Source: Opitutaceae bacterium (lineage in GTDB: Bacteria; Verrucomicrobiota; Verrucomicrobiia; Opitutales; Opitutaceae). Taken from it: a stretch of DNA of 64,000 nucleotides. Below the pieces are notes generated by a model. The model did not search any database. It saw only the letters and a program-made list of their open reading frames with translations, and was not told the origin of the DNA. Below, one piece after another: positions 16,637 through 28,831 of this stretch (the stretch's first letter is position 1; each line of letters starts with the position of its first letter). A program made the position numbers and the translations under genes. The stretch is from the NCBI GenBank assembly GCA_035604815.1, contig DATNHT010000088.1, positions 14,388-78,387 of the forward strand, read 5' to 3'.

Positions 16637-17638
16637 TCAGTTTGGCGCGACGGGCCGGCAGAGGGCGGCCAGGTTCGCCGCCGGCGTCGACGAGGGGATC
16701 TCGCAACCCGCGTTGACCATGAAGGGCTCGCCGGCTTCAGCATGACAGCGGCGAACGGCGGCCGCGATCGAGTCGAGCGATCCGCGCATGACGCATCCGA
16801 CGGGGTCGACGTTGCCAGCAAGCGCGACCTTCGGGCCGAGCACGCTGCGGGCCTCGGCGAGGCTGACCATGTGGTCGATGTCCATGATGTCCAGGCCGAG
16901 CGTCGAGATGCCATGCAGAAGGTGCTTGATGTTTCCGCAGATGTGAAGCCGGACGTGGACGTTCATCCCGTGCAGGGCCGCCACGAGCCGCCGCTCGTGC
17001 GGCAGGATGAGGGATTCGTAGACCTTTGCCGAAACCTGGCTGGCAACCGCGTCGCCGATGCCGATCGTGTCGGCGCCGGCGGCGACCTGCGGCCGGGCGA
17101 AGTCTATCGCAGTTTCAACGCAGCGGGCCATCAGCGCGTTTGCGTAGGCCGGGTCATCGAGCAGGTCCATGAAGAAATTCGACACCCCGCGCAGATCGGC
17201 CGCCTCGGCCGCCGGCCCCTCCACCCAGCCCATGATCGAGAAGCGGTCGCCCGCGCGCGCCCTGTAGGCGCGCACGGCCTCGATGCGGTCGCGCATGCGC
17301 GGCGCCTGCAGGGGGTCGGGCCGCGGCAGCTTCGCGACATCCGGATCCCCCTCAAGCGGCGGCCTGAGGCAGATGGGCACCCCGTCGCGGGGAAACTCGA
17401 TCGGCGCGCCGAAGCCCGCCGTCTCCCGGTAGGGATCGGACATCGTGTTGAGCTGGTCGATGCCGAATTCCTCGGCGCAGCGCAGATTGGCCTCGACCAG
17501 CACCCGGTAATCCGACGCGAAGAGGCCGTAGTGGGAGCCGATATGCTCGGCGGCAAACTGCATCAGGATCGGCAGCCGGGGCAGCACGTCGGGCCGCCCG
17601 CCGCTAAGGACCGCCAGATAACGCTCGCGCGGGGTCAT
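16637..17638 (-). CDS. URO-D-family methylcobamide methyltransferase (MtaA/CmuA-like, MT2 candidate)
   Basis: 333 aa URO-D fold. Zn-ligand pattern LHICGN ... AGCEIP as in MtaA/MtbA-type enzymes. Sits in an operon with MtaB/MtaC homologs. Confidence 0.8.
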   Translation of the reverse strand: MTPRERYLAVLSGGRPDVLPRLPILMQFAAEHIGSHYGLFASDYRVLVEANLRCAEEFGIDQLNTMSDPYRETAGFGAPIEFPRDGVPICLRPPLEGDPDVAKLPRPDPLQAPRMRDRIEAVRAYRARAGDRFSIMGWVEGPAAEAADLRGVSNFFMDLLDDPAYANALMARCVETAIDFARPQVAAGADTIGIGDAVASQVSAKVYESLILPHERRLVAALHGMNVHVRLHICGNIKHLLHGISTLGLDIMDIDHMVSLAEARSVLGPKVALAGNVDPVGCVMRGSLDSIAAAVRRCHAEAGEPFMVNAGCEIPSSTPAANLAALCRPVAPN

Positions 17639-18201
17639 GGAAAAAGGGGTGGGCCGGCTGCGGCGCGCAGGTCCGGGCGAGGCTCGCTTCCGGCTGGATT
17701 CGGCACGACTCGGTCCGCGCGCTCAAGCAGCTCGGCCTGGAACGGCGACAGGGCGTGCTCCCGCCGCGCCATGTCCCATGATCGGTCCAGGCAGACGGTG
17801 AGTTCCCGCTGCCAGCCGAGTTCCCGGTCAAACTCCGCCAGCAGGCCCGCGGCCGCCACGGCCGGCACCTCGACAAAGATCCGGTTCGGGCGCTCGGACG
17901 CCACGAGGGCGCGCACCGCCCCGGGAAGGTCGGCAAGGGCCGCACAGCAGGTGCACGGCAGGAGGATCCGCCGCACGCTAACGCCCGGAGTTCTCTGGGC
18001 AAATCCCTCCATGCGCGTGCGCCCCTCCTCGGCGAGAACGGCTGGGCAGCGGGCGCCGGGCTCTCTCTCCGCCGCCTCGTGAATCTGCAGCTGCAGCCAG
18101 CGGGTCTTGCCGGACCCGCGGGGCCCGGTCACGAAGATGCAGTGCGGCCGCGTTTCCGGGGCAGGGGTCTCGCGCCACTGGAGTGAAGGTCCGGCGTGCA
18201 T
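17635..18201 (-). CDS. Small P-loop NTPase with CxCC motif (minimal CobW/COG0523-like G3E protein)
   Basis: Walker A FVTGPRGSGKT, then LPCTCCAAL (CxCC) and IFVEVPAVAAAG. Only 188 aa, so the C-terminal CobW domain is absent. Confidence 0.6.
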   Translation of the reverse strand: MHAGPSLQWRETPAPETRPHCIFVTGPRGSGKTRWLQLQIHEAAEREPGARCPAVLAEEGRTRMEGFAQRTPGVSVRRILLPCTCCAALADLPGAVRALVASERPNRIFVEVPAVAAAGLLAEFDRELGWQRELTVCLDRSWDMARREHALSPFQAELLERADRVVPNPAGSEPRPDLRAAAGPPLFP

Positions 18202-18213
18202 CGCCTCACCCCT

Positions 18214-19599
18214 TTACGCCACTTGGAGTTCGTACTCCGCCGGCAGGTACTTGGCCGGGTCGGCCAGGGACATCTGCCGGGCGATGAATGCGGCCTCGTC
18301 GGACGGCAATTCGTCAAGCTGGGCCGCCATCGAGTCGAGGAAGCCGAGCTCTCGCGGGACGATCTTGAGCGAGCCCGCGGCGTGGCCTGCGCGCAGGAGG
18401 TCGAGGGCGCAGCGCGCCGCGGCGACGCCCGCGTGAAAATGGTCCGGCGCGGCCACGATCGAGCGGGCGATCGCCAGGACGCTTTCGGGTCTTAGCACCC
18501 ATGCCTGGGGATCGAGTCCCGCGTCGGAATCGACGAGCCAGCGGCGCAGCGTGAGGGCGGCGGTCTTCCCCTCGGCCAGGGCCCGGTTCATCAGACGGCA
18601 GTCGTAGATCAGCTGCTCCATGTAGCAGGTCGGTGCCATGCCGGCAAGAAGGCGGACATTCTGCACGGACTCGTTGGACCACGTGTCCGCATAGGCGGCG
18701 GCAATGTTGCCGAGGGGGCTGAAGTGCGCGCAGGCGGATGTCTTGCCTTCCATCGCCATCGGGCAGCCGGTGATCGCCTTTAGGTAGGGGTTCTCGTACG
18801 CGCAATCCTTGCCGGGGCCTATGGCGCCGTATTCGTAGGCGACGAGCGTGCGCACGGTCGTGACGGCTCGCACGACGGCGGCAAAGACCCGGGGGATCAT
18901 CCTTTGCTCGGCAAGCACCATCGCGGTGTTGCCGAAGCCGCAGGCGGTGTCGCCCGCGCAAACGGCCCCATGGCGGCGCGCGACGGCGGCGATGTGCTTC
19001 CACAGGAATTCCATGTCGCGCACGCCGAGCACGCACAGCGCGAAGATCACCTGCCCGAGATCGCAGTTCATCAGGGCCTCGTCGTGCAGCTCCTTGCCGC
19101 CCACCGATTCGATGCTGAGCAGCTCCGCTCCGGCTCGGGCCGAGCCCTCGAACAGCTCCAGCATCCGCTCCCAGTGCATGCCCGAGCGCATGACCGGCGG
19201 GCGGGCGAACTCCCGGTTGTCGTTGGGCGTCATGCGCAGCGCCGTCGGAAGGCCGAATTGGCGGCGGGCATCCTCCATGCCGGCAAGGAGCACCCGCACT
19301 ATCTCGATGCCGAAGGCCGGCGTGGCGGTCATGGGCGGCAAAGTCTCGAACTCGATGATGACGCCGGGAGCCTCGAGCTCGGCCGCGCGGCGCAGGGCGT
19401 CCTTTACGATCTCCTTGTAGTGGCGGACGACGGCGGGCATGGTCGCCTCCGCGACCTCCATAGGGGGCAGCGTGAAATTGAGCTCCGGGTAAACCAGTCC
19501 GCCGCCCAGGCGCAGCCCCTGTCGGGTCACGAGGGGCTTGGGCGCGGTGCCGAAGAGCAGGTCGTCCGCGTTGGTGATCGCAAGGCTTTGGTATTTCAT
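18214..19599 (-). CDS. mtaB: Methanol:corrinoid methyltransferase MtaB homolog
   Basis: 461 aa. From memory it aligns along its length with Methanosarcina MtaB: LSIESVGGKE, AGDTACGFGNTAM, LVAYEYGAIGPGKDCAYEN, KAITGCPMAMEGKTSACAH, WSNESV, YDCRLMN. Confidence 0.85.
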   Translation of the reverse strand: MKYQSLAITNADDLLFGTAPKPLVTRQGLRLGGGLVYPELNFTLPPMEVAEATMPAVVRHYKEIVKDALRRAAELEAPGVIIEFETLPPMTATPAFGIEIVRVLLAGMEDARRQFGLPTALRMTPNDNREFARPPVMRSGMHWERMLELFEGSARAGAELLSIESVGGKELHDEALMNCDLGQVIFALCVLGVRDMEFLWKHIAAVARRHGAVCAGDTACGFGNTAMVLAEQRMIPRVFAAVVRAVTTVRTLVAYEYGAIGPGKDCAYENPYLKAITGCPMAMEGKTSACAHFSPLGNIAAAYADTWSNESVQNVRLLAGMAPTCYMEQLIYDCRLMNRALAEGKTAALTLRRWLVDSDAGLDPQAWVLRPESVLAIARSIVAAPDHFHAGVAAARCALDLLRAGHAAGSLKIVPRELGFLDSMAAQLDELPSDEAAFIARQMSLADPAKYLPAEYELQVA

Positions 19600-19664: not shown

Positions 19665-20300
19665 TTACGCGAACCCCACGAGCGCGCGGGCCTTGTCGGC
19701 GGCCGAGGCCGCATCGGGGGCGTATCCGTCAGCCCCAATCTCGTCGGCGAACTCCTGGCTGACCGGCGCCCCTCCCACCAGGATCTTGACCGGCGGGCCG
19801 CCGGCAGCGCGGATCGCCTGCACCGTCTCGACCATGGCGGGCATTGTCGTCGTCAGGAGCGCGGAAAGACCGACCACCTGCGGCCGGAACTCGTTGATCG
19901 CGGTCACGTACTTGGCGGCAGGTACGTTCGCTCCCAGGTCGATGACGCGGAAGCCGGTCGCCTTCAACATGACAGCCACCAGGTTCTTGCCTATGTCGTG
20001 CAGGTCGCCCTTCACCGTGCCGATCAGGGCCGTGTACTTGGGTGTGATGCCCGCGGCGGCCAGCCGCGGCTCCAGCAGGCTCATCGCCTCCTTCATCGCG
20101 CGGGCCGCGACGAGCATCTCCGGAACGAATATCTCGTTGTTCTTGAACTTCTCGCCCACCGCGGCCATCGCGGGGACCAGGGCCTTGTCAACGAGGTCGA
20201 TCGGCATGGCTCCCTCGTCGAGGGCCCGTTGCGTGAGGGCCTTGGCGTCCTTGCTCTTGCCGGCGGCGACGGCTTCGGAAAGCAGTTCAAACGTTGTCAT
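19665..20300 (-). CDS. mtaC: Corrinoid (cobalamin-binding) protein, MtaC-like
   Basis: B12-binding cap helix bundle plus a Rossmann domain with the DxHxxG motif (GDLHDIGKN), SALLTT and VGGAP. Confidence 0.9.
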   Translation of the reverse strand: MTTFELLSEAVAAGKSKDAKALTQRALDEGAMPIDLVDKALVPAMAAVGEKFKNNEIFVPEMLVAARAMKEAMSLLEPRLAAAGITPKYTALIGTVKGDLHDIGKNLVAVMLKATGFRVIDLGANVPAAKYVTAINEFRPQVVGLSALLTTTMPAMVETVQAIRAAGGPPVKILVGGAPVSQEFADEIGADGYAPDAASAADKARALVGFA

Positions 20301-20476
20301 AATTGGGTCGGTGTTGAGGTAAGAGGCTGCAGTCTAGCAGAAGGGCGGGCCGTAGGCTAGGGCGGCGGTGGCATTTCCGGCGCCGGGCCTGGGGCGGGTG
20401 GCTGCCGCGGCTGCGGCCCGGCCCATGGGTCGAGGCGGGAGGCGTTGGGGAGCACCTTGTGGAGGGGGCGGGCATC

Positions 20477-22108
20477 TCAGGGAAGGACCAGCTGGTCGAT
20501 GTAGGCGTCCTCGAATCCGGGCTGAAGGTTGAGTTCAATCGCCTCCATGGCGCGGCACGCCGCGCTCATCTCCCCCAGAAGGCTGCGGTCGTTCAGGGCC
20601 AGGTAGGCCCCGCCGAGCGAGGTGTTGCCGACCACCTGAATCTGATCGGCCGTGAAACCCGGGAGCAGGCCGCAGCCGATCGCGTGCTCCAGCGACAGGT
20701 AGAAGCCGAAGCCGCCGGCGAGATAGAGGCGCTTCACGTCGCGCGCCTCGGTGCCCAGCAGGTGAAGCAGCGTCGAAGCGCCTGCCGCAATGGCGGCCTT
20801 GGCCTGCAGGAGCCGGGCGACATCCAATTCGGACACCCAGACCGGCCCCGAGGCGCCGTGGGCATGTAGCCGCAGCTTGCGCCCCTGGGCGTCGGCGTGA
20901 ACCGCGTCGCCCGCGCCCGAGCAGAACGCCGCGTCAAAGCGGCCGTTGGCCTGCAGGATCCCCTTGCGCCGGGCCTCCCAGAGGAAGTCCACGTAGGCCG
21001 AGCCGCAGATGCCGATCGGCCTCTCGGTCGCACCGATGATGCCGAGATCCGCCGCAAAAGGTTCCGTCCGCAGCCGCACGCGCTCGATCGCGCCGCGGAC
21101 CGCGCGGGTGCCGCTTGTCAAGCCGGCGCCCTCGAACGCGGGCCCGGCGGCGGTGGCGCAGCCGACAAGGCGGCCGCCCACCTTCGCGATGATCTCGCCG
21201 TTCGTGCCCACGTCGATGAGCAGCGCCGGGCCGTCATCGTAGAGAAGGCCCGTGGCGACCATGCCGGCGGCAAGGTCGGCCCCCACGTAGGCCGCGGGTC
21301 CCGGCAGCAGGTGCACCTGCGCGGCGGCGTCGCCAAACTCGAGGCCGAGGTCCCGCGGCTGATAGGTGCGGTGCTCCAGGAAGACGGGCCGGAACGGATG
21401 GACGCCCATGGGCGTCGGGTCCACGCCCGCCAGCAGGTGGAGCATGGTGGTGTTCGCGGCGACGCTCATCGCGCCGACGTCGCTTGGGGCCACGCCGGAC
21501 TGGCGGCACGCATCGCCGAGCAGCGGGGCAATCGTCTCCTTCGCGACGGCGCGCTGCAGCTGACCGAGCGCCTCCGGGTCGGTGGTGCACCGCTGGATCC
21601 GCGTGAGCACGTCCTCCCCGAAGCGTATCTGGGCGTTGAATGCCGAGGCCTGCCCGATCACCCCGCCGGTTGCGAGGTCGCAGAGCAGCAGGGAGACCGT
21701 GGTCGTGCCGATGTCCACGGCGGCGCCGTAGCGCGCCTCAGGGACCAGCGGGTCGCGCGCCCAGGGAATGTTGATGCGAAACTCCGATACCACGGCCGGC
21801 TCGTGGCGCAGCAGCGAACGCGCTGGAAGCGCCAGCTCGATGCTCTCGCCGCCCAAGCGCATCTGGCATGACTTGACGCACGCCGTGGCGTCGGCGCCGA
21901 CGCGGGCGTCATCGGCGGCGCTCCGCAGCGAACCCGCGCGCAGCCCGACCTCGCAACCTCCGCACAGCCCGCGCCCGCCGCAGCGCATGTTCAGGGGAAA
22001 ATCGAGGCGCGCGAGCAGTTCGGAAAGCGGCAGCGCGGCCTCGGCGCCCGCGACGGAGAGATCGAACTGCCCGTCGGGCGTGTGGAGGAGGATGCGGGCA
22101 GCGGCCAT
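20477..22108 (-). CDS. RACE-type corrinoid reductive activase (2Fe-2S ferredoxin domain + ASKHA/DUF4445 ATPase)
   Basis: N-terminal CGGRGLCGGCEV...C plant-type ferredoxin motif. The ASKHA phosphate loop AVDIGTTTV and LIDVGTNGE are typical of RACo/AcsV-like activators. Confidence 0.85.
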   Translation of the reverse strand: MAAARILLHTPDGQFDLSVAGAEAALPLSELLARLDFPLNMRCGGRGLCGGCEVGLRAGSLRSAADDARVGADATACVKSCQMRLGGESIELALPARSLLRHEPAVVSEFRINIPWARDPLVPEARYGAAVDIGTTTVSLLLCDLATGGVIGQASAFNAQIRFGEDVLTRIQRCTTDPEALGQLQRAVAKETIAPLLGDACRQSGVAPSDVGAMSVAANTTMLHLLAGVDPTPMGVHPFRPVFLEHRTYQPRDLGLEFGDAAAQVHLLPGPAAYVGADLAAGMVATGLLYDDGPALLIDVGTNGEIIAKVGGRLVGCATAAGPAFEGAGLTSGTRAVRGAIERVRLRTEPFAADLGIIGATERPIGICGSAYVDFLWEARRKGILQANGRFDAAFCSGAGDAVHADAQGRKLRLHAHGASGPVWVSELDVARLLQAKAAIAAGASTLLHLLGTEARDVKRLYLAGGFGFYLSLEHAIGCGLLPGFTADQIQVVGNTSLGGAYLALNDRSLLGEMSAACRAMEAIELNLQPGFEDAYIDQLVLP

Positions 22109-22141: not shown

Positions 22142-24433
22142 TCAGAACTCGTCGTAGGCGATCTGGCTGGCCGGGACGCCAATCTCGGCGAGCATCTTGT
22201 TGCACGCCCTCACCATCGCCGGCGGGCCGCAGAGGTAATACTCGGCGGCCTTTGGATTCGCGTGCCCGAGCAGGTGGTGCTCCCGCACAACCTCGTGGAT
22301 GAGGCCGGTGTGGCCCCGCCATTCGTCCTCGGCAAGCGGCGAGGAGAGGGCCAGGTGAAAGCTGAAGTTCTGATGAATCCCCTCGAGATGCTTGAAGTAG
22401 CTCTCGTAGAATATCTCCTGCCTCGAGCGCGCTCCGTACCAGAAGCTGACCCTGCGGGCGGTCCCTTCAGTCTCAAGGAGGTGGGACAGGTGCGCCCGCA
22501 AGGGGGCCATGCCGGCGCCGCCGCCGATGTAGACCATTTCCTTTCCCGTGGGCTTTATATGGAAGTCGCCGAAGGGTCCGATCGCGGTGACGGTGTCGCC
22601 GGCCTTCAGGTTGAACACGTAGGCGGAGCCGACGCCGGGCGGGCAGTCCTGTCCCGGGGGAGGGGTCGCAATGCGCACGTTGAAGCGCAGGGAGCGTTCG
22701 AGCCGCTGGTTGCTTGCGATGGAGTAGTTGTTGCGCCGGCCCGTTTCCGGGTTGCGGGCGACGAGGTCGAACACGTGCTGATTCCTCCATACGGTCGCAT
22801 AGGGTTCCGGGATATCAAACTCGCGGAAACGGATGAGGCCGTACGAGGGTATGTCGACCTGCAGGTAGTCACCCGGGGTGAAGGCGATGTCCTCGGCCGG
22901 TTTGGCGGGCTCGAGCACGAGCTCCTTGATGAAGGTGGCCACGTTGGCGTTGCTCACCACCCTGAGGCGGTAGGTCCTCTGGGCGCGCGCGCCCGCTCCG
23001 CCGGGCTTGAGGACGTTAAGGTGGAGGCGGCCGCCGCGCTCCTCGATAGGGTAGGTGGCAAGGCCGCGGCAGACCGGGGCGCGCGCCGGCGATCCGTCGG
23101 CGAGGTTGTAGCGGCCGTTGTGCTTCGGGCACTCGATGATCTTTCCCTTGACGAGGCCGTCCGTGAGGAGGGTGTTGCCGTGCGTGCACAAGGCGTCGGT
23201 CGCATAGAGCCTGCGCTCGGCGTCCCGGTAGAGGGCGTAGGTCTTCTTGCCGTGGTCGAAGCGGATGACATCCGCCGGGCCCAGGTCGGCGGCGGCGCAG
23301 ACCTCGACCCAGCCCTGCGCATCGGCGCTCGAGACGCTCGAATAGGTTGCACCCGGATCGGCCTTCCGGGGCCTGGGCGGCGGGATCCGGCGTTTGACGC
23401 AGTAGGTGGGATCCTTGACCTGCCTGAGAACGGCGGGGATGATCTCGCGCCAGGCGGCAAGCGTGCTCGGGTAGGCGGCGGGCATGTCGTCCCTCACCAG
23501 CTCGTGCAGGCGGGGGAGCGCATGGTAGGGGACCAGGGGGAACATGTGGTGCTCCGTGTGGTAATTCATGTTCCAATACAGGTAGCGGTTGACGAGATTC
23601 ATGTGCACCGTCCGGCAGTTGAGGCGGTGATCGAGGACGTTCTCGGCCAGGCCGGCGTGCTGCGTCAGCCCGTAGACTGTCGCCAGCCACGCGCCGAAGA
23701 GGTTCGGGAGGCCCACGTAGAGGAGCGGCAGGATGCTTCGGGTATAGATCGCGAGGCCGACCACGGACGCGTAAACGAGGACGTAGACGCGGGCCCTGCG
23801 GTAGATCTTCGGGAATTCGCTTTCGGGGATGAAGGTCTTCTCGTCGGCGCCCATGCGGCCGAAGGAATGCATCACGATGTGCTTAAAGTACCTCGGGTAC
23901 ACCGGAAGGCCAAAGAAGCCCATGATGAACTTCTTCAGATCCGGCGGCCGGGGCACCGCGATCTCGGGGTCGCGGCCGACGATGATGGTGTCGCTGTGGT
24001 GGCGGGTGTGGCTCCAGCGCCACACGGTCGACTCCCGCATGATCATGAACGACGCGATCTCGTAGAGCGCGTTGTTCATCCAGTCGGTCCTGAAGGCCGT
24101 GCCGTGCCCGGACTCATGCCAGCGCGAGTCGGAGGAGGAGCCGTAGAGGGCGGCGTAGACCCCGAACGGAAGGATCGCCCACCATGATCCCCAGAGGGCG
24201 CATGTCGCCCAGCCGGAGGCGAAGATGAGGGCAAACCAGATCAGCGTGTCGCGGACGGCCGGGCCGTTGCGGCGCTCCAGGAGCTTGCGCATCGTGGCGC
24301 GCGGGACGGGGCATTGGTACCAGTCGGCCTCGGCGAGGCCCTTCTCGACGGCGAGCGCCGCATTCACGCCAACGAGGCTGTAGTCCAGCTTGGCGGGCTT
24401 CAAAGATGCGGTGGCGGCGGCGTCGTGGCTCAT
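22142..24433 (-). CDS. Three-domain fusion: membrane di-iron fatty-acid-desaturase/hydroxylase domain + Rieske [2Fe-2S] ferredoxin + FNR/NqrF-like FAD/NAD(P)H reductase
   Basis: His boxes HESGH, HTRHH and HTEHH; Rieske CTHG...CPKH; reductase RNNYSIAS...GGAGMAP...CGPPAM. The ATG at 24433 (MSHDAAATAS) was chosen; the upstream 129 codons in the ORF track overlap the DUF1638 gene. Confidence 0.85.
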   Translation of the reverse strand: MSHDAAATASLKPAKLDYSLVGVNAALAVEKGLAEADWYQCPVPRATMRKLLERRNGPAVRDTLIWFALIFASGWATCALWGSWWAILPFGVYAALYGSSSDSRWHESGHGTAFRTDWMNNALYEIASFMIMRESTVWRWSHTRHHSDTIIVGRDPEIAVPRPPDLKKFIMGFFGLPVYPRYFKHIVMHSFGRMGADEKTFIPESEFPKIYRRARVYVLVYASVVGLAIYTRSILPLLYVGLPNLFGAWLATVYGLTQHAGLAENVLDHRLNCRTVHMNLVNRYLYWNMNYHTEHHMFPLVPYHALPRLHELVRDDMPAAYPSTLAAWREIIPAVLRQVKDPTYCVKRRIPPPRPRKADPGATYSSVSSADAQGWVEVCAAADLGPADVIRFDHGKKTYALYRDAERRLYATDALCTHGNTLLTDGLVKGKIIECPKHNGRYNLADGSPARAPVCRGLATYPIEERGGRLHLNVLKPGGAGARAQRTYRLRVVSNANVATFIKELVLEPAKPAEDIAFTPGDYLQVDIPSYGLIRFREFDIPEPYATVWRNQHVFDLVARNPETGRRNNYSIASNQRLERSLRFNVRIATPPPGQDCPPGVGSAYVFNLKAGDTVTAIGPFGDFHIKPTGKEMVYIGGGAGMAPLRAHLSHLLETEGTARRVSFWYGARSRQEIFYESYFKHLEGIHQNFSFHLALSSPLAEDEWRGHTGLIHEVVREHHLLGHANPKAAEYYLCGPPAMVRACNKMLAEIGVPASQIAYDEF

Positions 24434-25224
24434 GGGATGGGCTGGGAAGAGGCGGCGCCCGCGGGCACCGCCCTTACGATATTGGCATCGGCGGTGTGCG
24501 CAATCCGCTCGCCGGGATGCACGACCAGGAACCGCTCGCTGTCCCAGGGTCCGTGCAGCAGGTCGCGCATGAGCGTGGCGTCGCCGGCATGATCCTTGAA
24601 ACGCCAGCCGAGGGACCTCGCGCATTGCTCGGCGTAGCGCCGGTCCTCGTCGTCGCCGGGCAGACCGAGGTCCGTGTACCCAGCGGTTGTATGCTGCGCG
24701 AAGGCCGAGCGTTCCATCTCCAGCAGGGCCTCGACCTCCTCGGCGTCGAACTTCAGCGCATACTCCGCGCGCAGCTTCGCCTCGCGCTCGGGTCCGGGCA
24801 CCCGCCGGGCCCAGTTCCATCCCGGCGAATACCAGTAGGTTCCCGGCTCGTCGCGCATCTGCGCGGCGTACCGCTCCTTGCTGCCGAGAAAGAGCGTGAT
24901 ACAGTCGTGCGCCCGGGCCACCACGAGCGGGCAGCGGCGCGGGGCGAGGTCCATCAGCGCGAGGCCGCAGAGCCCGTATACAAGCACGACCTGGTGCACC
25001 GCAGGGTCGTCTTCCGCCCGGCCGATGGCGCCCGCGAGCAGCGAGCGCAGCCCGGTCGGCCGATCGTGCAGGCCGATTTCAAGAAACTCCCGCCGCACGA
25101 TGTGCGTGGCGCCCTGCGTCAGGGCCGCAATTTCCGACTCGAGCACGCGGCAGGCGATCAGGGCGAGGCCGGGCTGCGGATTTGGCCGCGGCTCTGGCAT
25201 AGGGAGGCCGCTCATGGGGCCCAT
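24430..25224 (-). CDS. DUF1638 domain protein
   Basis: LALIACRVLESEI...EFLEIGLHDRP...VVLVYGLCG...VVARAHDCITLFLGS resembles DUF1638. Its stop overlaps the start of the fusion gene (ATGA). The start may instead be 25215 or 25203. Confidence 0.65.
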   Translation of the reverse strand: MGPMSGLPMPEPRPNPQPGLALIACRVLESEIAALTQGATHIVRREFLEIGLHDRPTGLRSLLAGAIGRAEDDPAVHQVVLVYGLCGLALMDLAPRRCPLVVARAHDCITLFLGSKERYAAQMRDEPGTYWYSPGWNWARRVPGPEREAKLRAEYALKFDAEEVEALLEMERSAFAQHTTAGYTDLGLPGDDEDRRYAEQCARSLGWRFKDHAGDATLMRDLLHGPWDSERFLVVHPGERIAHTADANIVRAVPAGAASSQPIP

Positions 25225-26624
25225 CCCTGTTCGATTTGCTCGAGCGTGCGGCCCTTGGTTTCAGGAACGAACCGCCCGACCACCAGCACCAGCACGGCGC
25301 AAAACGCCGCGTAGACGTAGAATGGAAACGCATGGTTGAGCTGGCGCACGAACCACGAGTCCCTCGCATCCATCAACGGGAAGGTCTGCGTCACGGCGTA
25401 GTCGGCTGTCCAGAGGAAGAAGGTCGCCAGCCCCAGCGCGCGGCCGCGCACGGAGGTGGGGAAGATCTCCGCCAGGATCACCCAGGTCACGGGCCCGACC
25501 GAGAGCCCGAAGGCGGCGATGTAAAGAACGATGAAGAGCAGCATCCAGCCGCTTGTCGCGCTCGGGTCGGTCATGCGCTGGGCCATCGCGCCCATGGCCA
25601 CCAGGCTTACACCCATGCCGGCGGCGCCGAGGAACATGAGCGGGCGCCGGCCCCATTTGTCCACGGTTGCGATGGCAACCAGCGTGAAGAGGACGCCCGC
25701 GCCGTTGATGATGACCTGCTGCAGCAGTCCCGCGTCCACTCCCGTGGAGGCGCTCATGGTCCTGAATATGGTGGCGCCAAAATACATGAAGACATTGATC
25801 CCGGTAACCTGCTGGAGGACGGCCAGAGCGATGCCTAGGAGCAGCGGCCGGCGCAGCTGGCGGGAGAGGAGCGCCCCCCAGGTCCCCTGTTCCCGGGAAA
25901 TCGCGTCCCTGATGCTCGCTAGCTCGTCTTCGGCGAACTTCTCGCCCGCAACTTTCCCTAGGATGGTCTTCGCCCGTCCCTCGAGCTTCATCTCGATCAG
26001 CCAGCGCGGGCTCTCGGGTATCTGCAGGAGCAGGAGGCCGAACAGCACGGAGGGCACGACACCGGTCGCGAACATCCAGCGCCAGCCGGTGGAGATGAGC
26101 CACGCCTGGTCACCGCCCCGGGAGATGAAGTAATTGACGAACGAGGTCGCCGCGATCCCCCCGACGATGGCGATCTGGTTGACGGCGACCATCCGTCCGC
26201 GGACATGCGCCGGGGTGATCTCGGCGATGTACATCGGCGTGGAGATCGAGGCGATGCCGATGGCCACGCCGCCGAGAAAGCGGAAGGCGATGAAGACGCC
26301 GATCACCTGCGGGAGCGCGGTGCCGATGGCTGAGGCGAAGAACATGACTGCGGAGAGGAACAGGGCGGGCTTGCGCCCGAATCGGTCCGAGAGGGGGCCG
26401 ACGAGCAGCACGCCCGCCGCGCACCCGATGAGCACGCAGCCCGACGCCCAGCCCTTCATGAAGTCGCCCAGGCCGAAGCGGGCGGTCAACGGCTCTATCG
26501 CGCCCGAGATGACGCCGGTGTCGTAGCCGAAGAGCAGGCCCCCGAGCGTCGCGACCAGGCAGATCGGCACCAGGTAGCGCAGGTTGACCGGGGGCGGCAG
26601 GGGAGAATGGGGGGGCTCGGGCAT
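25212..26624 (-). CDS. MFS sugar-porter family transporter (XylE/GalP/IolT-like)
   Basis: GGLLFGYDTGVISGAI, SDRFGRK, PESPRWL, the PETKGRTLEQIE tail and 12 TM segments. Confidence 0.9.
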   Translation of the reverse strand: MPEPPHSPLPPPVNLRYLVPICLVATLGGLLFGYDTGVISGAIEPLTARFGLGDFMKGWASGCVLIGCAAGVLLVGPLSDRFGRKPALFLSAVMFFASAIGTALPQVIGVFIAFRFLGGVAIGIASISTPMYIAEITPAHVRGRMVAVNQIAIVGGIAATSFVNYFISRGGDQAWLISTGWRWMFATGVVPSVLFGLLLLQIPESPRWLIEMKLEGRAKTILGKVAGEKFAEDELASIRDAISREQGTWGALLSRQLRRPLLLGIALAVLQQVTGINVFMYFGATIFRTMSASTGVDAGLLQQVIINGAGVLFTLVAIATVDKWGRRPLMFLGAAGMGVSLVAMGAMAQRMTDPSATSGWMLLFIVLYIAAFGLSVGPVTWVILAEIFPTSVRGRALGLATFFLWTADYAVTQTFPLMDARDSWFVRQLNHAFPFYVYAAFCAVLVLVVGRFVPETKGRTLEQIEQGWAP

Positions 26625-26636
26625 GGACGGCGCGTC

Positions 26637-27899
26637 TCAGCGGCCGGCGCTGTCGCGGATGGCCCGGAACATGGCGAGCATGTTGTCCATCGGAGTGGGT
26701 CCCTGGACGTTGTGGATGGCGTTGAAGACGAATCCTCCGTCGGGGGCGAAGGTGTCGATCCGCTCCCGGCACTGCCGATAGACCTCGTCGGGTGTGCCGA
26801 AGGGCAGCGTGTGCTGGGTGTCGATCCCGCCGCCCCAGAAGACGATGTCGCGCCCGAATTCCTGCTTCAGGCGGGCCGGATCCATCTCGGCGGCGGAGCA
26901 CTGCACGGGGTTGAGGATGTCGAAGCCGGAGGCGATGAAGTCCTGGATCAGGGGATAGACGTCGCCGCAGGAGTGGATGAACGTCTTCCAGGACGAGTGG
27001 CGGTGGATCAGGTCGTTGAGCCTGCGGTGGAAGGGCTGGTAGAGGGTGCGGTAGGCTTCGCGCGAGATGAACGGCCCGCGCTGGGTGCCGAAGTCCGTGC
27101 CCGTGAGCAGGGCGACCTGCACCGTGTCGCCGAACAGGTCGATCAGCGTGCGCAGGTTGCGCTCCGCGAGCGCGCATTGCCGCTCGAAGACCTCCAGGAT
27201 ATAGTCCCGGCGCGCGACGGTGGAGACATACCACTCCTCGATGTCGCGGATTCCCCTTGGGTTCTTGAGGGACGGCGCGGGCACCAGCGCGATGTCCCCG
27301 AACGCGGCGCCGGGGATCACCAGGAGGGCGCCGAGGTCGCCGCGTTCCTCGAACCAGCGTTTTTGCGCGCGATAGAAGCCGAGGTCGGACTCGTTCAGGA
27401 GCGCAAACTCCTCAAGGTTGTCCGCGGGGTCGAGCCGGTCTTCGTCGATGGGCGGCTGGCGGATGATCGAGTCAAAGAAATAGCCGCCGTCGGGCATGTG
27501 GCCGCTCGGCACGACGGACGTGTCCCCCTCGGGATAGATATGCCAGCCGCCTTCGGGGGCGCGGGTGACATTGAACATCCCGGGCACCAGGCATTCGGTG
27601 CCGTCGAAGAGGGTGAACGGCTTCCAGTCGCGCGACTCCGTGCCGAAGATGGACCTGCGCCCCAGCACCCCGATGACGTCGATCGGCAGGGCCGCCCGCA
27701 GTTCGTCGTCGACCTCGCCGAGCATCTGATAGGGCTCGTTGACCCTCACCCTAAAGCCTTTATCGCCGAGCAGGTGGCGGCGGATGCGGGTCACGGCGGA
27801 GACATGGATGCCGGTCACAAACGAGGCGCCGAAGTCGACGGCAACTCGGTCGGGGGTTGAATGGGCCAGGGAGGCCGCGAGACGCTGTCGTCCAGTCAT
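26637..27899 (-). CDS. Long URO-D (uroporphyrinogen-decarboxylase) family protein, function unknown
   Basis: 420 aa with TDFGTQRGPFISREAYR...FIHSCGDVYPLIQDFIASGFDILNPVQ...GGFVFNAIHNVQ. Has the URO-D fold, but the distal Cys of the MtaA Zn site is not evident. Confidence 0.75.
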   Translation of the reverse strand: MTGRQRLAASLAHSTPDRVAVDFGASFVTGIHVSAVTRIRRHLLGDKGFRVRVNEPYQMLGEVDDELRAALPIDVIGVLGRRSIFGTESRDWKPFTLFDGTECLVPGMFNVTRAPEGGWHIYPEGDTSVVPSGHMPDGGYFFDSIIRQPPIDEDRLDPADNLEEFALLNESDLGFYRAQKRWFEERGDLGALLVIPGAAFGDIALVPAPSLKNPRGIRDIEEWYVSTVARRDYILEVFERQCALAERNLRTLIDLFGDTVQVALLTGTDFGTQRGPFISREAYRTLYQPFHRRLNDLIHRHSSWKTFIHSCGDVYPLIQDFIASGFDILNPVQCSAAEMDPARLKQEFGRDIVFWGGGIDTQHTLPFGTPDEVYRQCRERIDTFAPDGGFVFNAIHNVQGPTPMDNMLAMFRAIRDSAGR

Positions 27900-27948
27900 G
27901 ACCTATTCATAGCAAACCCGGGGGCCGGTGGCCATGCCCCGGCGGACG

Positions 27949-28106
27949 AAATACATATCCCGGGCGACAAGTCGTGTTTGACAGCGCCGGCCCGTCGGGC
28001 AAGCCGGAGGCCATGCGCAACTACCATGGAATGGAGATCGCCTGGGCAAACCGGCTCGTGCAGACCTCGCGGGTCGACTTTGGGCGCGTCAAATATATCC
28101 CGGGCG
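27949..28106. repeat. Direct repeat AAATA(C/T)ATATCCCGGGCG, two copies (27949..27966 and 28091..28106), at the AraC/operon divergent region
   Basis: 14 of 16 positions are identical when right-aligned, including an AT-rich stretch that is rare in this GC-rich DNA plus the palindromic CCCGGG. Copy 1 is intergenic and copy 2 lies in the first ~40 codons of the AraC gene. Confidence 0.35.
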
Positions 28107-28831
28107 GCTATTGCGGGCCCCGGCGCCAGCGCGACTACCAGCTCGTGGTCCTGCAGGCGGGCGGGGCGCGTGTGACCGTGGACGACGAGACGCTGATCCT
28201 CCCTGCGGAGCATGCGGTGCTCTTCCTGCCCGGCCACAGGGAGCATTTCGTCTTTTCTGCCGAACAGGGCACCGAGCACGTCTGGTGCTCGATCCGGCCC
28301 CGCTTCATGCCGGTCGAGCTGAGGTGGCGGCTGGCGCGGGCGCCGCGGATGGCGCCATGCTCGGAGTTGATGCACCGCCTCTTCGCGGCGGCGCAGGGAT
28401 GCCGCCGCGTGACCAGCCTGGCCGCCGGGCGCGTGGTGGAGCACCTCGGTCTGGCCCTGTTTGCGGAGTTCCTGCACCAGACCTCGCTCTGGCCGCACCG
28501 GGCGCAGCGGGACGAGGGGCTCTCCCGCGCCATGGCCTGCATCGAGGAGCACTTTGGGGACGAGGATTGCCTGGCGCGCGCCCGGCAGGCGGCGCTGTGC
28601 TCGGAAAGCGGGCTCAACCAGCGGTTCCGGAGATACCTCGGCACGAGTCCGGCGCGCTATCTCTGGCTGACCCGGGTCGAGCGCGGCGTCGCAATGCTGC
28701 GCGACACGGGACTGACGGTGGCGGAGGTCAGCGCGCGCTGCGGGTGCAAGAACCCGTTCCACTTCTCGCGCCTGGTGAAGCGCAACCAGGGCATGTCACC
28801 GCGCGAGGTGCGCCGCGTGGCTTGGCAATGA
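27974..28831 (+). CDS. AraC-family transcriptional regulator (cupin sensor + HTH_18)
   Basis: C-terminal AraC HTH (SGLNQRFRRYLGTSPARYL...VAEVSARCGCKNPFHFSRLVKRNQGMSPREVRR). Divergent from the operon at 27899. The start could instead be the ATG at 28013. Confidence 0.85.
   Translation: MFDSAGPSGKPEAMRNYHGMEIAWANRLVQTSRVDFGRVKYIPGGYCGPRRQRDYQLVVLQAGGARVTVDDETLILPAEHAVLFLPGHREHFVFSAEQGTEHVWCSIRPRFMPVELRWRLARAPRMAPCSELMHRLFAAAQGCRRVTSLAAGRVVEHLGLALFAEFLHQTSLWPHRAQRDEGLSRAMACIEEHFGDEDCLARARQAALCSESGLNQRFRRYLGTSPARYLWLTRVERGVAMLRDTGLTVAEVSARCGCKNPFHFSRLVKRNQGMSPREVRRVAWQ

What the first reader, a model, noticed from the sequence alone, without database searches (positions are those of the whole stretch)
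16637..28831. AraC-linked ~11 kb operon joining a methanol-type corrinoid methyltransferase system to a sugar porter, a second URO-D enzyme, DUF1638 and a self-sufficient di-iron oxygenase
Seen in sequence: nine co-directional minus-strand genes run from 27899 to 16637. In order they are long URO-D, MFS sugar porter, DUF1638, desaturase-Rieske-FNR fusion, RACE activator, MtaC corrinoid protein, MtaB, CxCC P-loop and MtaA-like URO-D. Junctions are 12 nt, a 13-nt overlap, a 4-nt overlap, 33 nt, 176 nt, 65 nt, 12 nt and a 4-nt overlap. An AraC regulator is transcribed divergently. Established knowledge: MtaB/MtaC/MtaA plus a RACE-type activator is the methanol-to-methyl-carrier module of methanogens and acetogens, and sugar-porter MFS proteins and AraC regulators are hallmarks of carbohydrate catabolic loci. 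Inference: I do not recognise this combination as a described pathway. One possibility is a corrinoid-dependent route for removing or salvaging methyl groups from methylated sugars (O-methyl ethers or methyl esters of plant or algal glycans); the flanking GH26, GH97 and hexuronate-type transporter genes fit a glycan degrader. In that model the di-iron fusion supplies either an O2-dependent alternative or electrons. The substrate is not deducible from sequence.
Basis: partly seen in the sequence, partly recalled or inferred. Interest (0 to 1): 0.88.

Follow-up and report, generated by a model that had tools for sequence, protein, structure and literature searches.

The report
Sugar-linked corrinoid methyl-transfer gene cluster
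A peat-soil Opitutaceae bacterium has joined a vitamin-B12 methyl-transfer system, a sugar importer, an unusual sugar-linked methyltransferase-like enzyme and an oxygen-dependent demethylase-like enzyme into one gene cluster, which probably strips methyl groups off methylated sugars with or without oxygen, a function not yet described.

Summary

The locus is a peat-metagenome Opitutaceae contig. It combines three modules that also occur apart:
- **Module A:** MtaC-MtaB with RACE plus DUF1638 (corrinoid reactivation), a short CobW-like protein and an MtaA-like Zn enzyme.
- **Module B:** cupin-AraC, a 420-aa "long URO-D" and a XylE-like sugar porter. This unit recurs widely without MtaB.
- **Module C:** a 763-aa fusion whose first 474 residues are about 55% identical to MocD/MocE-type gene pairs. 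That family is implicated in O-demethylating a methylated cyclitol. The reductase end is NqrF-like, and databases misname the whole protein NqrF.

A+B+C or A+B recur in distant Verrucomicrobiota and Acidobacteriota. Elsewhere the fusion sits with mutarotase, GFO/IDH/MocA, xylose-isomerase-like TIM-barrel and glycoside-hydrolase genes.

Best reading (about 0.45): an imported methylated sugar is demethylated by an O2-independent corrinoid route and an O2-dependent Moc-like route. No experiment supports this, and the substrate is unknown. A conserved promoter-like element before mtaC suggests two transcription units. I found no published description.

The parts
27974..28831 (+). Cupin-type AraC-family regulator, divergent from the long URO-D gene. 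It belongs to the sugar/URO-D module.
   Evidence: Pfam finds AraC_binding + HTH_18. Orthologues at 42-54% identity and 93-95% coverage lie divergently about 1 kb upstream of long URO-D genes in metagenome loci without MtaB (L120, L133, L138, L153).
26637..27899 (-). Long URO-D-family protein (420 aa). Candidate substrate:corrinoid methyltransferase (MT I) acting on the imported sugar.
   Evidence: URO-D matches only aa 274-416. The AlphaFold2 model has pLDDT 84.5, and its best PDB match is MtaA 4AY7, then UroD and MetE. H309, C334 and H396 are invariant and C311 is at least 90% conserved. It lies within 10 kb of MtaB in 19 of 80 loci, directly beside mtaB or mtaC in eight of them. It is paired with the sugar porter in many genomes.
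25212..26624 (-). MFS sugar porter, XylE-like sugar/H+ symporter.
   Evidence: Sugar_tr E 1.6e-111. NCBIfam XylE scores 440 bits, below the 608 cut-off. PDB XylE E 1.3e-108. Orthologues at 50-57% identity lie directly downstream of long URO-D in L086, L087 and L088.
24430..25224 (-). DUF1638 protein, partner of the RACE/RamA-type corrinoid activase.
   Evidence: PF07796 E 4.4e-32. It co-occurs with RACE in 27 of 31 RACE-containing MtaB loci, usually less than 300 nt away. It is genetically tied to B12 reactivation in Phaeobacter (PMC5764234; PMC12478193).
22142..24433 (-). Self-sufficient membrane di-iron oxygenase: MocD-like FA_desaturase domain, MocE-family Rieske ferredoxin and NqrF-like FAD/NADH reductase. 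Candidate O2-dependent sugar O-demethylase.
   Evidence: Domains are. The His boxes HESGH, HTRHH and HTEHH, and the Rieske motifs CTH...CPKH, are read from the sequence. Residues 13-474 are about 55% identical to rhizobial and Burkholderia FA-desaturase + MocE gene pairs. It is absent from otherwise co-linear L008 and L136. Elsewhere it lies beside mutarotase, GFO/IDH/MocA, AP_endonuc_2 and GH genes.
20477..22108 (-). RACE/RACo-type ATP-dependent corrinoid reductive activase.
   Evidence: Raco_middle + RACo_C_ter. NCBIfam AcsV-like E 3.7e-101. The N-terminal motif C43-x5-C49-x2-C52...C77 is a 2Fe-2S-type pattern read from the sequence.
20331..20361 (-). Conserved promoter-like element (CCTAGCCT-N14-TGCTAGACT) inside the 176-nt RACE-mtaC gap, with the TGCTAG box starting 39 nt upstream of the mtaC ATG.
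   Evidence: It is conserved in L004, L006, L008, L011 and L013. The TGCTAG box is shared with Opitutaceae loci that carry a regulator gene at this position. This is inference only, with no transcript data.
19665..20300 (-). MtaC-type corrinoid (B12-binding) methyl-carrier protein.
   Evidence: B12-binding_2 + B12-binding. A DxHxxG motif (DLHDIG) is read from the sequence. It is adjacent to MtaB in 58 of 80 loci.
18214..19599 (-). MtaB-family methyltransferase (methanol:corrinoid type).
   Evidence: PF12176 E 1.2e-160, full length. PDB 2I2X E 8.8e-87, with the Glu/Cys/Cys positions conserved in the printed alignment. NCBIfam MtaB_Meth scores 389 bits, below the 720 cut-off.
17635..18201 (-). 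Short CobW/COG0523-like P-loop protein with a CxCC motif. Putative metal (Zn or Co) chaperone.
   Evidence: cobW domain E 8.8e-9. GPRGSGKT and LLPCTCC are read from the sequence. It follows MtaB in 12 of 80 loci and is absent in L004 and L008.
16637..17638 (-). MtaA-like URO-D-family Zn methyltransferase (MT II). Acceptor unknown, probably a thiol.
   Evidence: URO-D E 2.4e-59. TIGR01463 scores 149 bits, below the 235 cut-off. The alignment to MtaA 4AY7 conserves LHICGN and GC.
15736..16605 (-). PPK2 polyphosphate kinase, a possible tenth co-transcribed gene. Its membership is doubtful.
   Evidence: It lies 31 nt downstream on the same strand. PF03976 is from the JGI calls. It keeps this position in L004, L008, L095 and L136 but not in L006, L011 or L013.

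Best explanation
The locus is a composite demethylation unit for an imported methylated sugar, controlled by a sugar-type AraC regulator.

**Proposed steps.**
1. The XylE-like porter imports a neutral methylated monosaccharide. The methyl group could be an O-methyl ether or possibly a methyl ester; the identity is unknown.
2. Without O2, the long URO-D enzyme acts as methyltransferase I. It passes the methyl group to Co(I) on the corrinoid protein MtaC.
3. The MtaA-like Zn enzyme passes the methyl group on to a thiol acceptor. Related loci carry a homocysteine S-methyltransferase instead, so methionine is a likely sink.
4. MtaB feeds free methanol into the same carrier.
5. RACE, DUF1638 and the CobW-like protein keep the corrinoid and metal sites active.
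6. With O2, the membrane-bound MocD/MocE-like fusion uses NADH to hydroxylate the methyl group, which leaves as formaldehyde.

**Shown here:** gene content, conserved catalytic motifs, recurrence of the linkages, and family relationships.

**Inferred:** every enzymatic role of the long URO-D and the fusion, the direction of methyl flow, the acceptor and the substrate.
For: 1. All parts are present with intact motifs. MtaB keeps its Glu/Cys/Cys zinc positions. The MtaA-like protein keeps HxC...C. MtaC has DxHxxG, RACE has 2Fe-2S cysteines, and the fusion has three His boxes and Rieske CxH/CxxH.
2. The fusion is about 55% identical over 460 aa to MocD+MocE-type gene pairs. mocDEF is reported as the oxygenase that demethylates 3-O-methyl-scyllo-inosamine.
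3. In loci without any corrinoid gene, the fusion sits with aldose 1-epimerase-GFO/IDH/MocA, AP_endonuc_2, GH38, GH5, GH2 and AraC. It therefore acts on a sugar and does not serve the corrinoid system.
4. Long URO-D plus an orthologous sugar porter is a conserved adjacent pair in 5 of 6 sampled long contigs, in 12 of 31 long-URO-D-centred metagenome loci and in 9 of 19 MtaB loci that carry the long URO-D. An orthologous divergent AraC accompanies it, and GH120-like or GH2 genes are neighbours.
5. The long URO-D is also repeatedly linked to corrinoid genes. It lies near MtaB in 19 of 80 loci, and near corrinoid genes in L087, L129, L135, L162 and L165. Only a methyl transfer from a sugar explains both associations simply.
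6. In 14 of 19 loci the long URO-D co-occurs with a separate MT II candidate, either MtaA-like or homocysteine S-methyltransferase. It is therefore not the redundant MT II.
7. Long URO-D and the fusion are neighbours in L032 and L079 (mutarotase between them), L137 and L043, and a more distant long URO-D homologue (about 31% identical) directly precedes the fusion in L048.
8. Closely related contigs L008 and L136 lack only the fusion. This fits an accessory aerobic alternative.
9. URO-D-family MT I enzymes of about 430 aa with N-terminal insertions are known, for example CdmB and the aryl O-demethylases, some of them with zinc (PMC13222342).
10. The mta module has lost its usual adjacent regulator gene and now sits behind the sugar-type AraC unit.
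Against: - There are no biochemical or expression data.
- The three modules occur separately. Only 3 of 31 long-URO-D-centred loci below 80% identity carry corrinoid genes within 10 kb, so the long URO-D might not need a corrinoid protein at all.
- Its similarity to any characterised MT I is insignificant (CdmB E 0.29). Structure search gives only generic UroD and MtaA matches.
- In several loci the long URO-D directly follows mtaB like a classical mtaA (L030, L037, L041-L043).
- Co(I) attack on an aliphatic methyl ether is chemically hard and is known only for methanol itself (my own knowledge).
- A conserved promoter-like element before mtaC suggests separate transcription.
- The MocDEF function itself rests on genetics, not on enzymology.
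Confidence: 0.45

Rival explanations
1. This is a juxtaposition of independent modules. mtaCB, the MtaA-like gene, RACE and DUF1638 form an ordinary bacterial methanol methyltransferase system that uses methanol, for example from pectin, as a methyl source for a thiol or methionine. The AraC/long URO-D/porter unit and the Moc-like oxygenase are separate sugar-catabolic functions that simply lie alongside.
For: Each module is found alone. MtaB occurs with only MtaC or nothing nearby in many loci. Long URO-D plus porter occurs without MtaB. The fusion occurs without corrinoid genes. A conserved promoter-like element lies before mtaC. Homocysteine S-methyltransferase sits beside MtaBC in 15 of 80 loci, which gives a self-contained methanol-to-methionine logic.
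Against: The combination recurs in different gene orders in distant lineages: L030, L032, L043, L048, L055, L079, L035, L058 and L129. The fusion gene sits between DUF1638 and RACE, a pair that is otherwise adjacent. The mta module's own regulator gene is missing here. The long URO-D is a member of a methyltransferase family and is enriched near corrinoid genes.
Confidence: 0.28
2. The long URO-D is the MtaA equivalent (methyl-corrinoid:acceptor methyltransferase, MT II) of this bacterial MtaB clade. Methanol is the only methyl donor, and the acceptor is a thiol-containing small molecule. The sugar porter and the fusion are unrelated to methyl transfer.
For: The gene order mtaC-mtaB-long URO-D, with gaps of 27-85 nt, occurs in L005, L030, L037 and L041-L043 and mirrors mtaCB-mtaA. 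A conserved HxC...C...H pattern resembles the thiol-activating zinc sites of MtaA and MetE. The best structural match is MtaA. Five loci have MtaB, MtaC and long URO-D with no other MT II nearby.
Against: Fourteen of 19 loci, including this window, also carry a separate MtaA-like or homocysteine methyltransferase. Most long URO-D genes lie beside a sugar porter, AraC or GH genes with no MT I nearby. An MT II has no obvious reason to be paired with a sugar importer.
Confidence: 0.14
3. The fusion protein is an electron-input module. It passes electrons from NADH through FAD and the Rieske cluster to RACE and DUF1638, allowing reductive reactivation of the corrinoid under oxic conditions.
For: Its gene lies exactly between DUF1638 and RACE. 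It contains a complete NADH-to-2Fe-2S chain.
Against: The di-iron His boxes are intact. The same fusion, at 74-76% identity, occurs in sugar loci with no corrinoid genes. Co-linear relatives L008 and L136 work without it. Most RACE plus DUF1638 pairs have no such partner.
Confidence: 0.04

Closest known systems
Methanol:corrinoid methyltransferase systems (MtaB/MtaC/MtaA with RamA or RACE) of Methanosarcina and methylotrophic acetogens
   Same: MtaB is full length with a conserved Zn site. An MtaC-type corrinoid protein lies next to it. There is a URO-D-family Zn MT II and an ATP-dependent activase.
   Different: The host is a fermentative or facultative Opitutaceae bacterium, not a methanogen or acetogen. 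MtaB and the MtaA-like protein score below the NCBIfam equivalog cut-offs. CoM is not expected as the acceptor. The locus adds DUF1638, a second long URO-D, a sugar porter and an oxygenase, and is regulated by a sugar-type AraC.
Corrinoid-dependent O-demethylase and dehalogenase systems with URO-D-family MT I (Odm/Vdm of Acetobacterium dehalogenans, Mtv of Moorella, CdmBCA)
   Same: The architecture is MT I + corrinoid protein + MT II + activating enzyme. The MT I is a URO-D-fold protein of about 420-430 aa with N-terminal insertions, and some contain zinc (PMC13222342). The long URO-D fits this shape.
   Different: Known substrates are aryl methyl ethers or methyl halides, and the acceptor is tetrahydrofolate in strict anaerobes. 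Here the context is a sugar porter, GH genes and AraC. Sequence similarity to CdmB is insignificant (E 0.29). No pterin-type MT II is present.
[quoted passage not shown]
   Same: It combines a MocD-type FA_desaturase-family di-iron protein with a MocE-family Rieske ferredoxin. The window's fusion is about 55% identical to such gene pairs. The neighbourhoods elsewhere include GFO/IDH/MocA and xylose-isomerase-like TIM-barrel genes, as in moc and iol loci. The proposed reaction is O-demethylation of a methylated polyol.
   Different: All three functions are fused into one 763-aa polypeptide. The reductase is NqrF/FNR-like rather than the separate 'FAD-dependent oxidoreductase' of proteobacteria. 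Mutarotase neighbours point to an aldose rather than a cyclitol. Direct orthology to the genetically studied mocDEF was not tested.
Split methionine synthase / MtgBCD glycine-betaine methyltransferase with RamA and DUF1638 in aerobic Roseobacters
   Same: This is a modular corrinoid methyl-transfer system in non-acetogenic bacteria. It relies on a RamA-like activase plus DUF1638 and has homocysteine as a methyl sink (PMC5764234; PMC12478193). Related MtaB loci carry a homocysteine S-methyltransferase.
   Different: The donor enzymes there are MttB-superfamily or pterin-binding proteins, not MtaB or URO-D. There is no sugar porter or oxygenase.
Cytochrome P450 6-O-methyl-D-galactose demethylase of marine Bacteroidetes porphyran utilisation (my own recollection of Reisky et al. 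2018, not checked here)
   Same: An O2-dependent monooxygenase with ferredoxin and reductase removes a sugar O-methyl group as formaldehyde, so that the sugar can enter catabolism.
   Different: The enzyme family is different (P450 versus membrane di-iron). No corrinoid alternative is known there.

Membership tests
MtaB (methanol:corrinoid methyltransferase, PF12176) | Full-length match to the family profile | tested here: met
   PF12176 E 1.2e-160, covering aa 2-456 of 461. PDB 2I2X E 8.8e-87.
MtaB (methanol:corrinoid methyltransferase, PF12176) | Zinc ligands Glu/Cys/Cys (E164, C220, C269 in M. barkeri numbering, recalled from memory) | tested here: met
   The printed alignment to 2I2X keeps LLS(V/I)ES, GDT(D/A)C and GPGKDC.
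MtaB (methanol:corrinoid methyltransferase, PF12176) | Reaches the curated equivalog score of methanogen MtaB | tested here: not met
   NF040651 scores 389 bits against a cut-off of 720. This is a distinct bacterial clade, 61-90% identical within Verrucomicrobiota, Acidobacteriota and Planctomycetota.
MtaB (methanol:corrinoid methyltransferase, PF12176) | Methanol is the methyl donor | not testable with these tools
   This needs an enzyme assay.
MtaA/CmuA-type methylcobamide:thiol methyltransferase (URO-D fold, Zn) | URO-D fold with the HxC...C zinc motif (333-aa protein) | tested here: met
   URO-D E 2.4e-59. LHICGN and AGCEI align with the corresponding residues of MtaA 4AY7.
MtaA/CmuA-type methylcobamide:thiol methyltransferase (URO-D fold, Zn) | Reaches the curated family score | tested here: not met
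   TIGR01463 scores 149 bits against a cut-off of 235. MtaA_Meth scores 110 against 400.
RACE/RACo corrinoid activase | Middle and ASKHA C-terminal domains plus an N-terminal 2Fe-2S domain | tested here: met
   Raco_middle E 3.3e-48 and RACo_C_ter E 3.6e-66. The pattern CGGRGLCGGC...C is read from the N-terminus; this region has no Pfam hit.
URO-D-family methyltransferase I of corrinoid O-demethylase type (420-aa long URO-D) | URO-D TIM barrel of about 420-430 aa with insertions in the N-terminal half | tested here: met
   The AlphaFold2 model has pLDDT 84.5 and a beta-rich insertion at about aa 51-135. Foldseek's best matches are MtaA 4AY7 (E 9e-11), then UroD and MetE.
URO-D-family methyltransferase I of corrinoid O-demethylase type (420-aa long URO-D) | Significant sequence similarity to a characterised MT I | tested here: inconclusive
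   A profile search against the PDB gives CdmB E 0.29, MtaA E 0.30 and UroD E 0.17.
URO-D-family methyltransferase I of corrinoid O-demethylase type (420-aa long URO-D) | Encoded with a corrinoid protein, an activase and an MT II | tested here: inconclusive
   This holds in the window and in 19 of 80 MtaB loci. It holds in only 3 of 31 long-URO-D-centred loci below 80% identity.
MocDEF-type ferredoxin oxygenase | FA_desaturase-family di-iron subunit with three His boxes, closely related to MocD-type genes | tested here: met
   PF00487 E 4.9e-34. HESGH, HTRHH and HTEHH are present. About 55% identity to 'fatty acid desaturase family protein' genes that precede MocE-family ferredoxin genes.
MocDEF-type ferredoxin oxygenase | MocE-family Rieske ferredoxin | tested here: inconclusive
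   TIGR02377 E 1.3e-31 but 108.6 bits, below the 136.15 cut-off. The CxH and CxxH motifs are present.
MocDEF-type ferredoxin oxygenase | Separate MocF-type FAD-dependent reductase | tested here: not met
   The reductase is a fused NqrF/FNR-like domain. Proteobacterial sets have a separate 'FAD-dependent oxidoreductase' of about 410 aa.
NqrF (the name given to the fusion by NCBI and JGI) | Plant-type 2Fe-2S domain plus FAD/NADH domain, encoded within an nqrABCDEF operon | tested here: not met
   Only aa 488-763 match nqrF model positions 130-403. The N-terminal 474 aa are FA_desaturase plus Rieske. No nqr genes lie nearby. The database name is a misannotation.

The most novel reading that the evidence does not exclude
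The long URO-D would be the first corrinoid-dependent methyltransferase that takes methyl groups from carbohydrates, either as an aliphatic O-methyl ether or as a methyl ester of an imported monosaccharide. That would give soil and peat Verrucomicrobiota, Planctomycetota and Acidobacteriota an O2-independent counterpart to oxidative sugar demethylases. It is encoded side by side with such an oxygenase, the Moc-like fusion. In loci that hold only MtaC, MtaB and long URO-D, MtaB might even run backwards and release the methyl group as methanol. That would amount to a B12-dependent methyl-ether hydrolysis.
Probability: 0.4. Interest if true: 0.85.

Novelty: new variant of a known kind. Interest (0 to 1): 0.72.

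Why it matters
Methylated sugars and methyl-esterified uronates are common in plant, moss, algal and microbial glycans. How anaerobes remove these methyl groups is not known. The only sugar demethylases I know of need O2.

A corrinoid route would add a new substrate class to B12-dependent methyltransferases. It would explain why MtaB-type genes are widespread in non-methanogenic, non-acetogenic soil bacteria. It would also link glycan breakdown to methanol, methionine and C1 fluxes in peat, where methanol feeds methanogens.

The work also assigns a testable function to two large unstudied families. One is the long URO-D family (8000 hits at E ≤ 1e-5, the search's candidate cap). The other is a roughly 760-aa fusion that public databases mislabel as NqrF.

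Tried and rejected
- **Riboswitch or other known RNA in 12000-32000.** Rfam found nothing at E ≤ 0.1.
- **Consensus promoter and terminator scan.** Results were no better than shuffled sequence. The promoter-like element was found only by comparing loci.
- **Literature.** No paper links MtaB with DUF1638, or methylated sugars with corrinoid enzymes. MtaB in Opitutaceae is mentioned only in passing. [quoted passage not shown]
- **Sequence search of the long URO-D against the PDB.** This was uninformative with both the single sequence and a profile. Foldseek gave only generic UroD, MtaA and MetE matches, so MT I versus MT II could not be settled.
- **'The locus is part of a polysaccharide utilisation locus.'** Rejected. 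The neighbours are PPK2, a phosphoribosyltransferase, aldolase, DnaJ, pseudouridine kinase/glycosidase, hyp genes, PFOR and hydrogenase.
- **'The fusion feeds electrons to RACE.'** Rejected as the main reading (see rival explanations).
- **My provisional label 'PocR-AraC'** for the regulator found in 41 of 80 MtaB loci is withdrawn. Only the HTH_18 domain has a Pfam hit.
- **My first greedy ORF picking** in the high-GC loci produced antisense artefacts. I replaced it with tblastn assignment.

Full report
**1. The observation**

- Nine co-directional minus-strand genes run from 27899 to 16637. AraC lies divergently at 27974-28831.
- The eight junctions are 12, -13, -4, 33, 176, 65, 12 and -4 nt.
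- Pfam and NCBIfam confirm every domain assignment.
- The fusion starts at 24433 and is 763 aa, like its 760-765-aa homologues. It does not start at the upstream ATG of the mechanical ORF.
- A tenth gene, PPK2 (15736-16605), follows after 31 nt.

Reading the sequences shows intact catalytic motifs.
- MtaC has DxHxxG.
- RACE has an N-terminal 2Fe-2S-type cysteine pattern.
- The short CobW-like protein has a P-loop and CxCC.
- The fusion has three His boxes (HESGH, HTRHH, HTEHH) and the Rieske motifs CxH and CxxH.

MtaB aligns with M. barkeri MtaB (2I2X, E 8.8e-87) and keeps the Glu/Cys/Cys zinc positions. The MtaA-like protein keeps the HxC...C positions of M. mazei MtaA. The residue numbering for both is from my memory.

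**2. Organism and surroundings**

The closest MtaB homologues (up to 93% identity) are from Opitutaceae MAGs and peat, bog or fen metagenomes. The window also encodes the following:
- GH26 (6466-7488)
- an MFS_1 transporter
- class I aldolase and DnaJ
- pseudouridine kinase and glycosidase
- HypE/D/F/B
- pyruvate:ferredoxin oxidoreductase
- a NiFe hydrogenase with NuoE/F/G-like subunits
- GH97 (53622-55799)

The host is therefore capable of anaerobic fermentation.

**3. Comparative anatomy around MtaB**

A genome scan seeded with MtaB returned 80 loci at 61-90% identity. They come from Opitutaceae, other Verrucomicrobiota, Acidobacteriota, Planctomycetota (including anammox MAGs) and a few other phyla. 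I assigned genes by tblastn.

| Gene near MtaB | Loci (of 80) |
|---|---|
| MtaC | 58 |
| AraC-family regulator with an unrecognised N-terminal domain | 41 |
| DUF1638 | 32 |
| RACE | 31 |
| Long URO-D (at least 40% identity) | 19 |
| Stand-alone homocysteine S-methyltransferase (PF02574, E 8.7e-66) | 15 |
| MtaA-like | 14 |
| Another URO-D type | 12 |
| Fusion | 10 |
| Sugar porter | 9 |

- DUF1638 and RACE occur together in 27 loci and are usually adjacent.
- The exact nine-gene order recurs in L004 (which lacks only the short CobW-like gene), L006, L011, L013 and L095.
- L008 and L136 are co-linear but lack only the fusion, leaving DUF1638 and RACE adjacent.
- The MtaA-like gene and the homocysteine methyltransferase are nearly complementary, overlapping in only 2 loci. 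This suggests they are alternative methyl-acceptor enzymes.
- The long URO-D co-occurs with one of them in 14 of 19 loci.

**4. DUF1638**

Fitness data in Phaeobacter tie DUF1638 and a RamA-like protein to B12 reactivation of a split methionine synthase (PMC5764234). Both proteins are induced with the MtgBCD system in Ruegeria (PMC12478193). DUF1638 here is therefore best read as part of the corrinoid reactivation pair.

**5. The fusion**

Residues 488-763 match the NqrF FAD/NADH domain (TIGR01941, 310 bits; PDB 7QTY, E 8.5e-76). Residues 375-473 match the MocE-family Rieske ferredoxin.

tblastn against plasmids shows residues 13-474 are about 55% identical to adjacent 'fatty acid desaturase family' plus 'MocE family 2Fe-2S ferredoxin' genes.
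- These pairs are followed by an FAD-dependent oxidoreductase gene.
- They occur in Sinorhizobium, Rhizobium and Burkholderia under LacI control.
- In Burkholderia they lie next to iolG, a xylose isomerase gene and a TIM-barrel gene.

The mocDEF products are described as an oxygenase system that demethylates 3-O-methyl-scyllo-inosamine (PMC13434037, citing Bahar et al. 1998).

The three-domain fusion is itself a large and well conserved family. More than 120 clusters are at least 73% identical, and databases name them 'NqrF'. Three members on long contigs sit in sugar contexts with no corrinoid genes:
- L090: AraC, an aldose-1-epimerase-GFO/IDH/MocA fusion protein, AP_endonuc_2, then the fusion.
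- L091: AraC, GH38, GH5, the fusion, a TIM-barrel gene and GH2.
- L092: AraC, AP_endonuc_2, the fusion, AP_endonuc_2 and GFO/IDH/MocA.

The fusion is thus a sugar- or polyol-directed oxygenase in its own right, not an electron donor for the corrinoid system.

**6. The long URO-D**

- Family size: the search filled its cap, with all 8000 scored candidates at E ≤ 1e-5, and the listed top 120 hits are all at least 68% identical.
- Conserved residues: H309, C334 and H396 are invariant, and C311 is at least 90% conserved.
- Structure: the AlphaFold2 model (pLDDT 84.5) is a URO-D barrel with an N-terminal beta-rich insertion. Foldseek ranks MtaA first, then UroD and MetE.
- Similarity to characterised enzymes: sequence similarity to any solved protein is insignificant, including the 429-aa MT I CdmB at E 0.29. 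CdmB and the aryl O-demethylase MT I enzymes share this 'long URO-D with N-terminal insertions' shape, and some contain zinc (PMC13222342).

Context is the informative part.
- On five of six long contigs sampled, the long URO-D is immediately followed by an orthologous XylE-like sugar porter, with no MtaB within 8-10 kb. In one of them an MtaC-like gene lies directly upstream (L087).
- The sixth contig has AraC, malectin-domain and GH120/PL9-like genes.
- A metagenome scan seeded with the long URO-D gave 80 further loci. Thirty-one of these have at least 3 kb on both sides and are below 80% identity. Among those 31, 12 have the orthologous porter, 5 have a divergent cupin-AraC, 3 have a GH120-like beta-helix protein and 3 have corrinoid-system genes.
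- The corrinoid-linked loci across the full scan are L129 (MtaC + MtaB), L162 (MtaC-like), L165 (homocysteine methyltransferase) and L135 (DUF1638). L137 reads long URO-D, fusion, porter.
- The window's AraC has orthologues at 42-54% identity that lie divergently upstream of long URO-D genes in loci without MtaB. This regulator therefore belongs to the sugar/URO-D module.

**7. Synthesis**

Three modules exist.
- **Module A** is the MtaB/MtaC methyl-carrier module with reactivation genes and an MT II.
- **Module B** is AraC, long URO-D and the sugar porter.
- **Module C** is the Moc-like oxygenase.

They occur apart, as A+B (L005, L055, L035, L058, L129, L008, L136) and as A+B+C. The A+B+C combinations occur in different gene orders:
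- the window type
- L030
- L032 and L079, with a mutarotase between the long URO-D and the fusion
- L043

L048 resembles these but carries only a distant long URO-D homologue (about 31% identical), which directly precedes the fusion.

Repeated, differently arranged linkage across orders and phyla argues for a functional connection. The long URO-D is the only part associated with both sugar uptake or glycosidase genes and corrinoid genes. The simplest function that explains both is methyl transfer from an imported methylated sugar to the corrinoid protein. The Moc-like oxygenase would do the same job with O2, and its presence or absence among near-identical relatives fits an accessory aerobic route.

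In the window lineage the usual regulator gene between RACE and mtaC is gone, and the module sits behind the sugar-type AraC unit. However, a conserved CCTAGCCT-N14-TGCTAGACT element remains upstream of the mtaC start codon at 20331-20361. A similar TGCTATGAAT box lies 15 nt upstream of the long URO-D start codon. Two transcription units are therefore likely.

**8. What remains uncertain**

- No step has experimental support.
- Co(I) attack on an aliphatic methyl ether is demanding chemistry. A methyl ester, such as methyl galacturonate (a neutral sugar suited to a sugar porter), or a methylthio sugar would be chemically easier donors. These are my inferences.
- The long URO-D could instead be the MtaA equivalent of this clade. 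It directly follows mtaB in several loci.
- The modules could be only loosely co-located.
- The acceptor of the MtaA-like enzyme is unknown. The homocysteine methyltransferase in sister loci suggests methionine as a sink.
- In loci with only MtaC, MtaB and long URO-D, reverse MtaB activity releasing methanol is conceivable but speculative.

**9. Novelty**

MtaB genes in Opitutaceae have been noted only in passing (PMC2474590; PMC4842900). Within the searchable library, nothing describes this cluster, the long URO-D/porter pair or the fusion family.

I rate it a new variant of known kinds, namely corrinoid three-component methyltransferases and Moc-type oxygenases. It carries a realistic chance of revealing a new substrate class.

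Noticed in passing
L021, L028, L037, L041, L045, L046, L048, L051, L054, L055 and L072, about 40-110 nt upstream of mtaC; window 20331-20361: Distant MtaB loci share two direct repeats (…GCACnnnAnnACAAAA… and …GGATTACAAGAC…) about 21 nt apart, followed by a TGCTA-type -10 box upstream of mtaC. This is probably the operator of the adjacent AraC-family regulator. In the window only the proximal part and the -10 box remain, and the regulator gene is absent.
   Followed up: partly
L025, L028, L032, L035, L037, L041, L046, L054, L058, L064, L067, L068, L070, L072, L079: A stand-alone homocysteine S-methyltransferase (PF02574, the MetH N-terminal domain type) lies next to MtaB/MtaC in 15 of 80 loci. 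Its distribution is nearly complementary to that of the MtaA-like gene. This suggests a folate-independent methanol-to-methionine route in Verrucomicrobiota, Acidobacteriota and Planctomycetota.
   Followed up: partly
window 22142-24433 and proteins P0241-P0360: The whole family of about 760-aa FA_desaturase-Rieske-FNR fusions is named 'NADH:ubiquinone reductase (Na+-transporting) subunit F' by NCBI and JGI. Only the C-terminal 275 aa resemble NqrF, so the name is a systematic misannotation.
   Followed up: yes
L073, L076, L077 (Kuenenia/Brocadiaceae MAG contigs): MtaB of this clade (63-64% identity) occurs on contigs binned to anammox bacteria. It is accompanied only by a CobW-like gene, with no MtaC within 10 kb.
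   Followed up: no
L005, L007, L009, L014, L015, L017, L026, L046, L048, L051, L072 (directly after mtaB or the CobW-like gene): A DUF6580 membrane protein of about 196 aa follows mtaB in 11 loci. It might be a transporter component for the corrinoid or the substrate.
   Followed up: no
window 15736-16605: A PPK2 polyphosphate kinase lies 31 nt downstream of the MtaA-like gene on the same strand. It keeps this position in L004, L008, L095 and L136 but not in L006, L011 or L013. It might regenerate nucleotide for the ATP-dependent activase, or it may be incidental.
   Followed up: partly
L152 and seven other metagenome loci; the contig carrying P0196: A GH120-like beta-helix protein (Glyco_hydro_120_ins + DUF1565 + Beta_helix, sometimes with CBM6/CBM35 and malectin-domain neighbours) lies directly downstream of the long URO-D in 8 loci. 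This hints at a xylose- or pectin-related substrate.
   Followed up: partly
window 29300-37205 and 38705-49737: Upstream of AraC lie pseudouridine kinase and glycosidase (PfkB + Indigoidine_A), hypE/D/F/B, PFOR, and a NiFe hydrogenase with NuoE/F/G-like diaphorase subunits. This indicates an anaerobic, H2-metabolising lifestyle for the host.
   Followed up: partly
L009 and L014 (same MAG, binchicken_co241_74): One Opitutaceae MAG carries two different mtaB loci, at 89% and 84% identity to the window's MtaB. Their partner genes differ, so paralogous Mta systems coexist in one genome.
   Followed up: no
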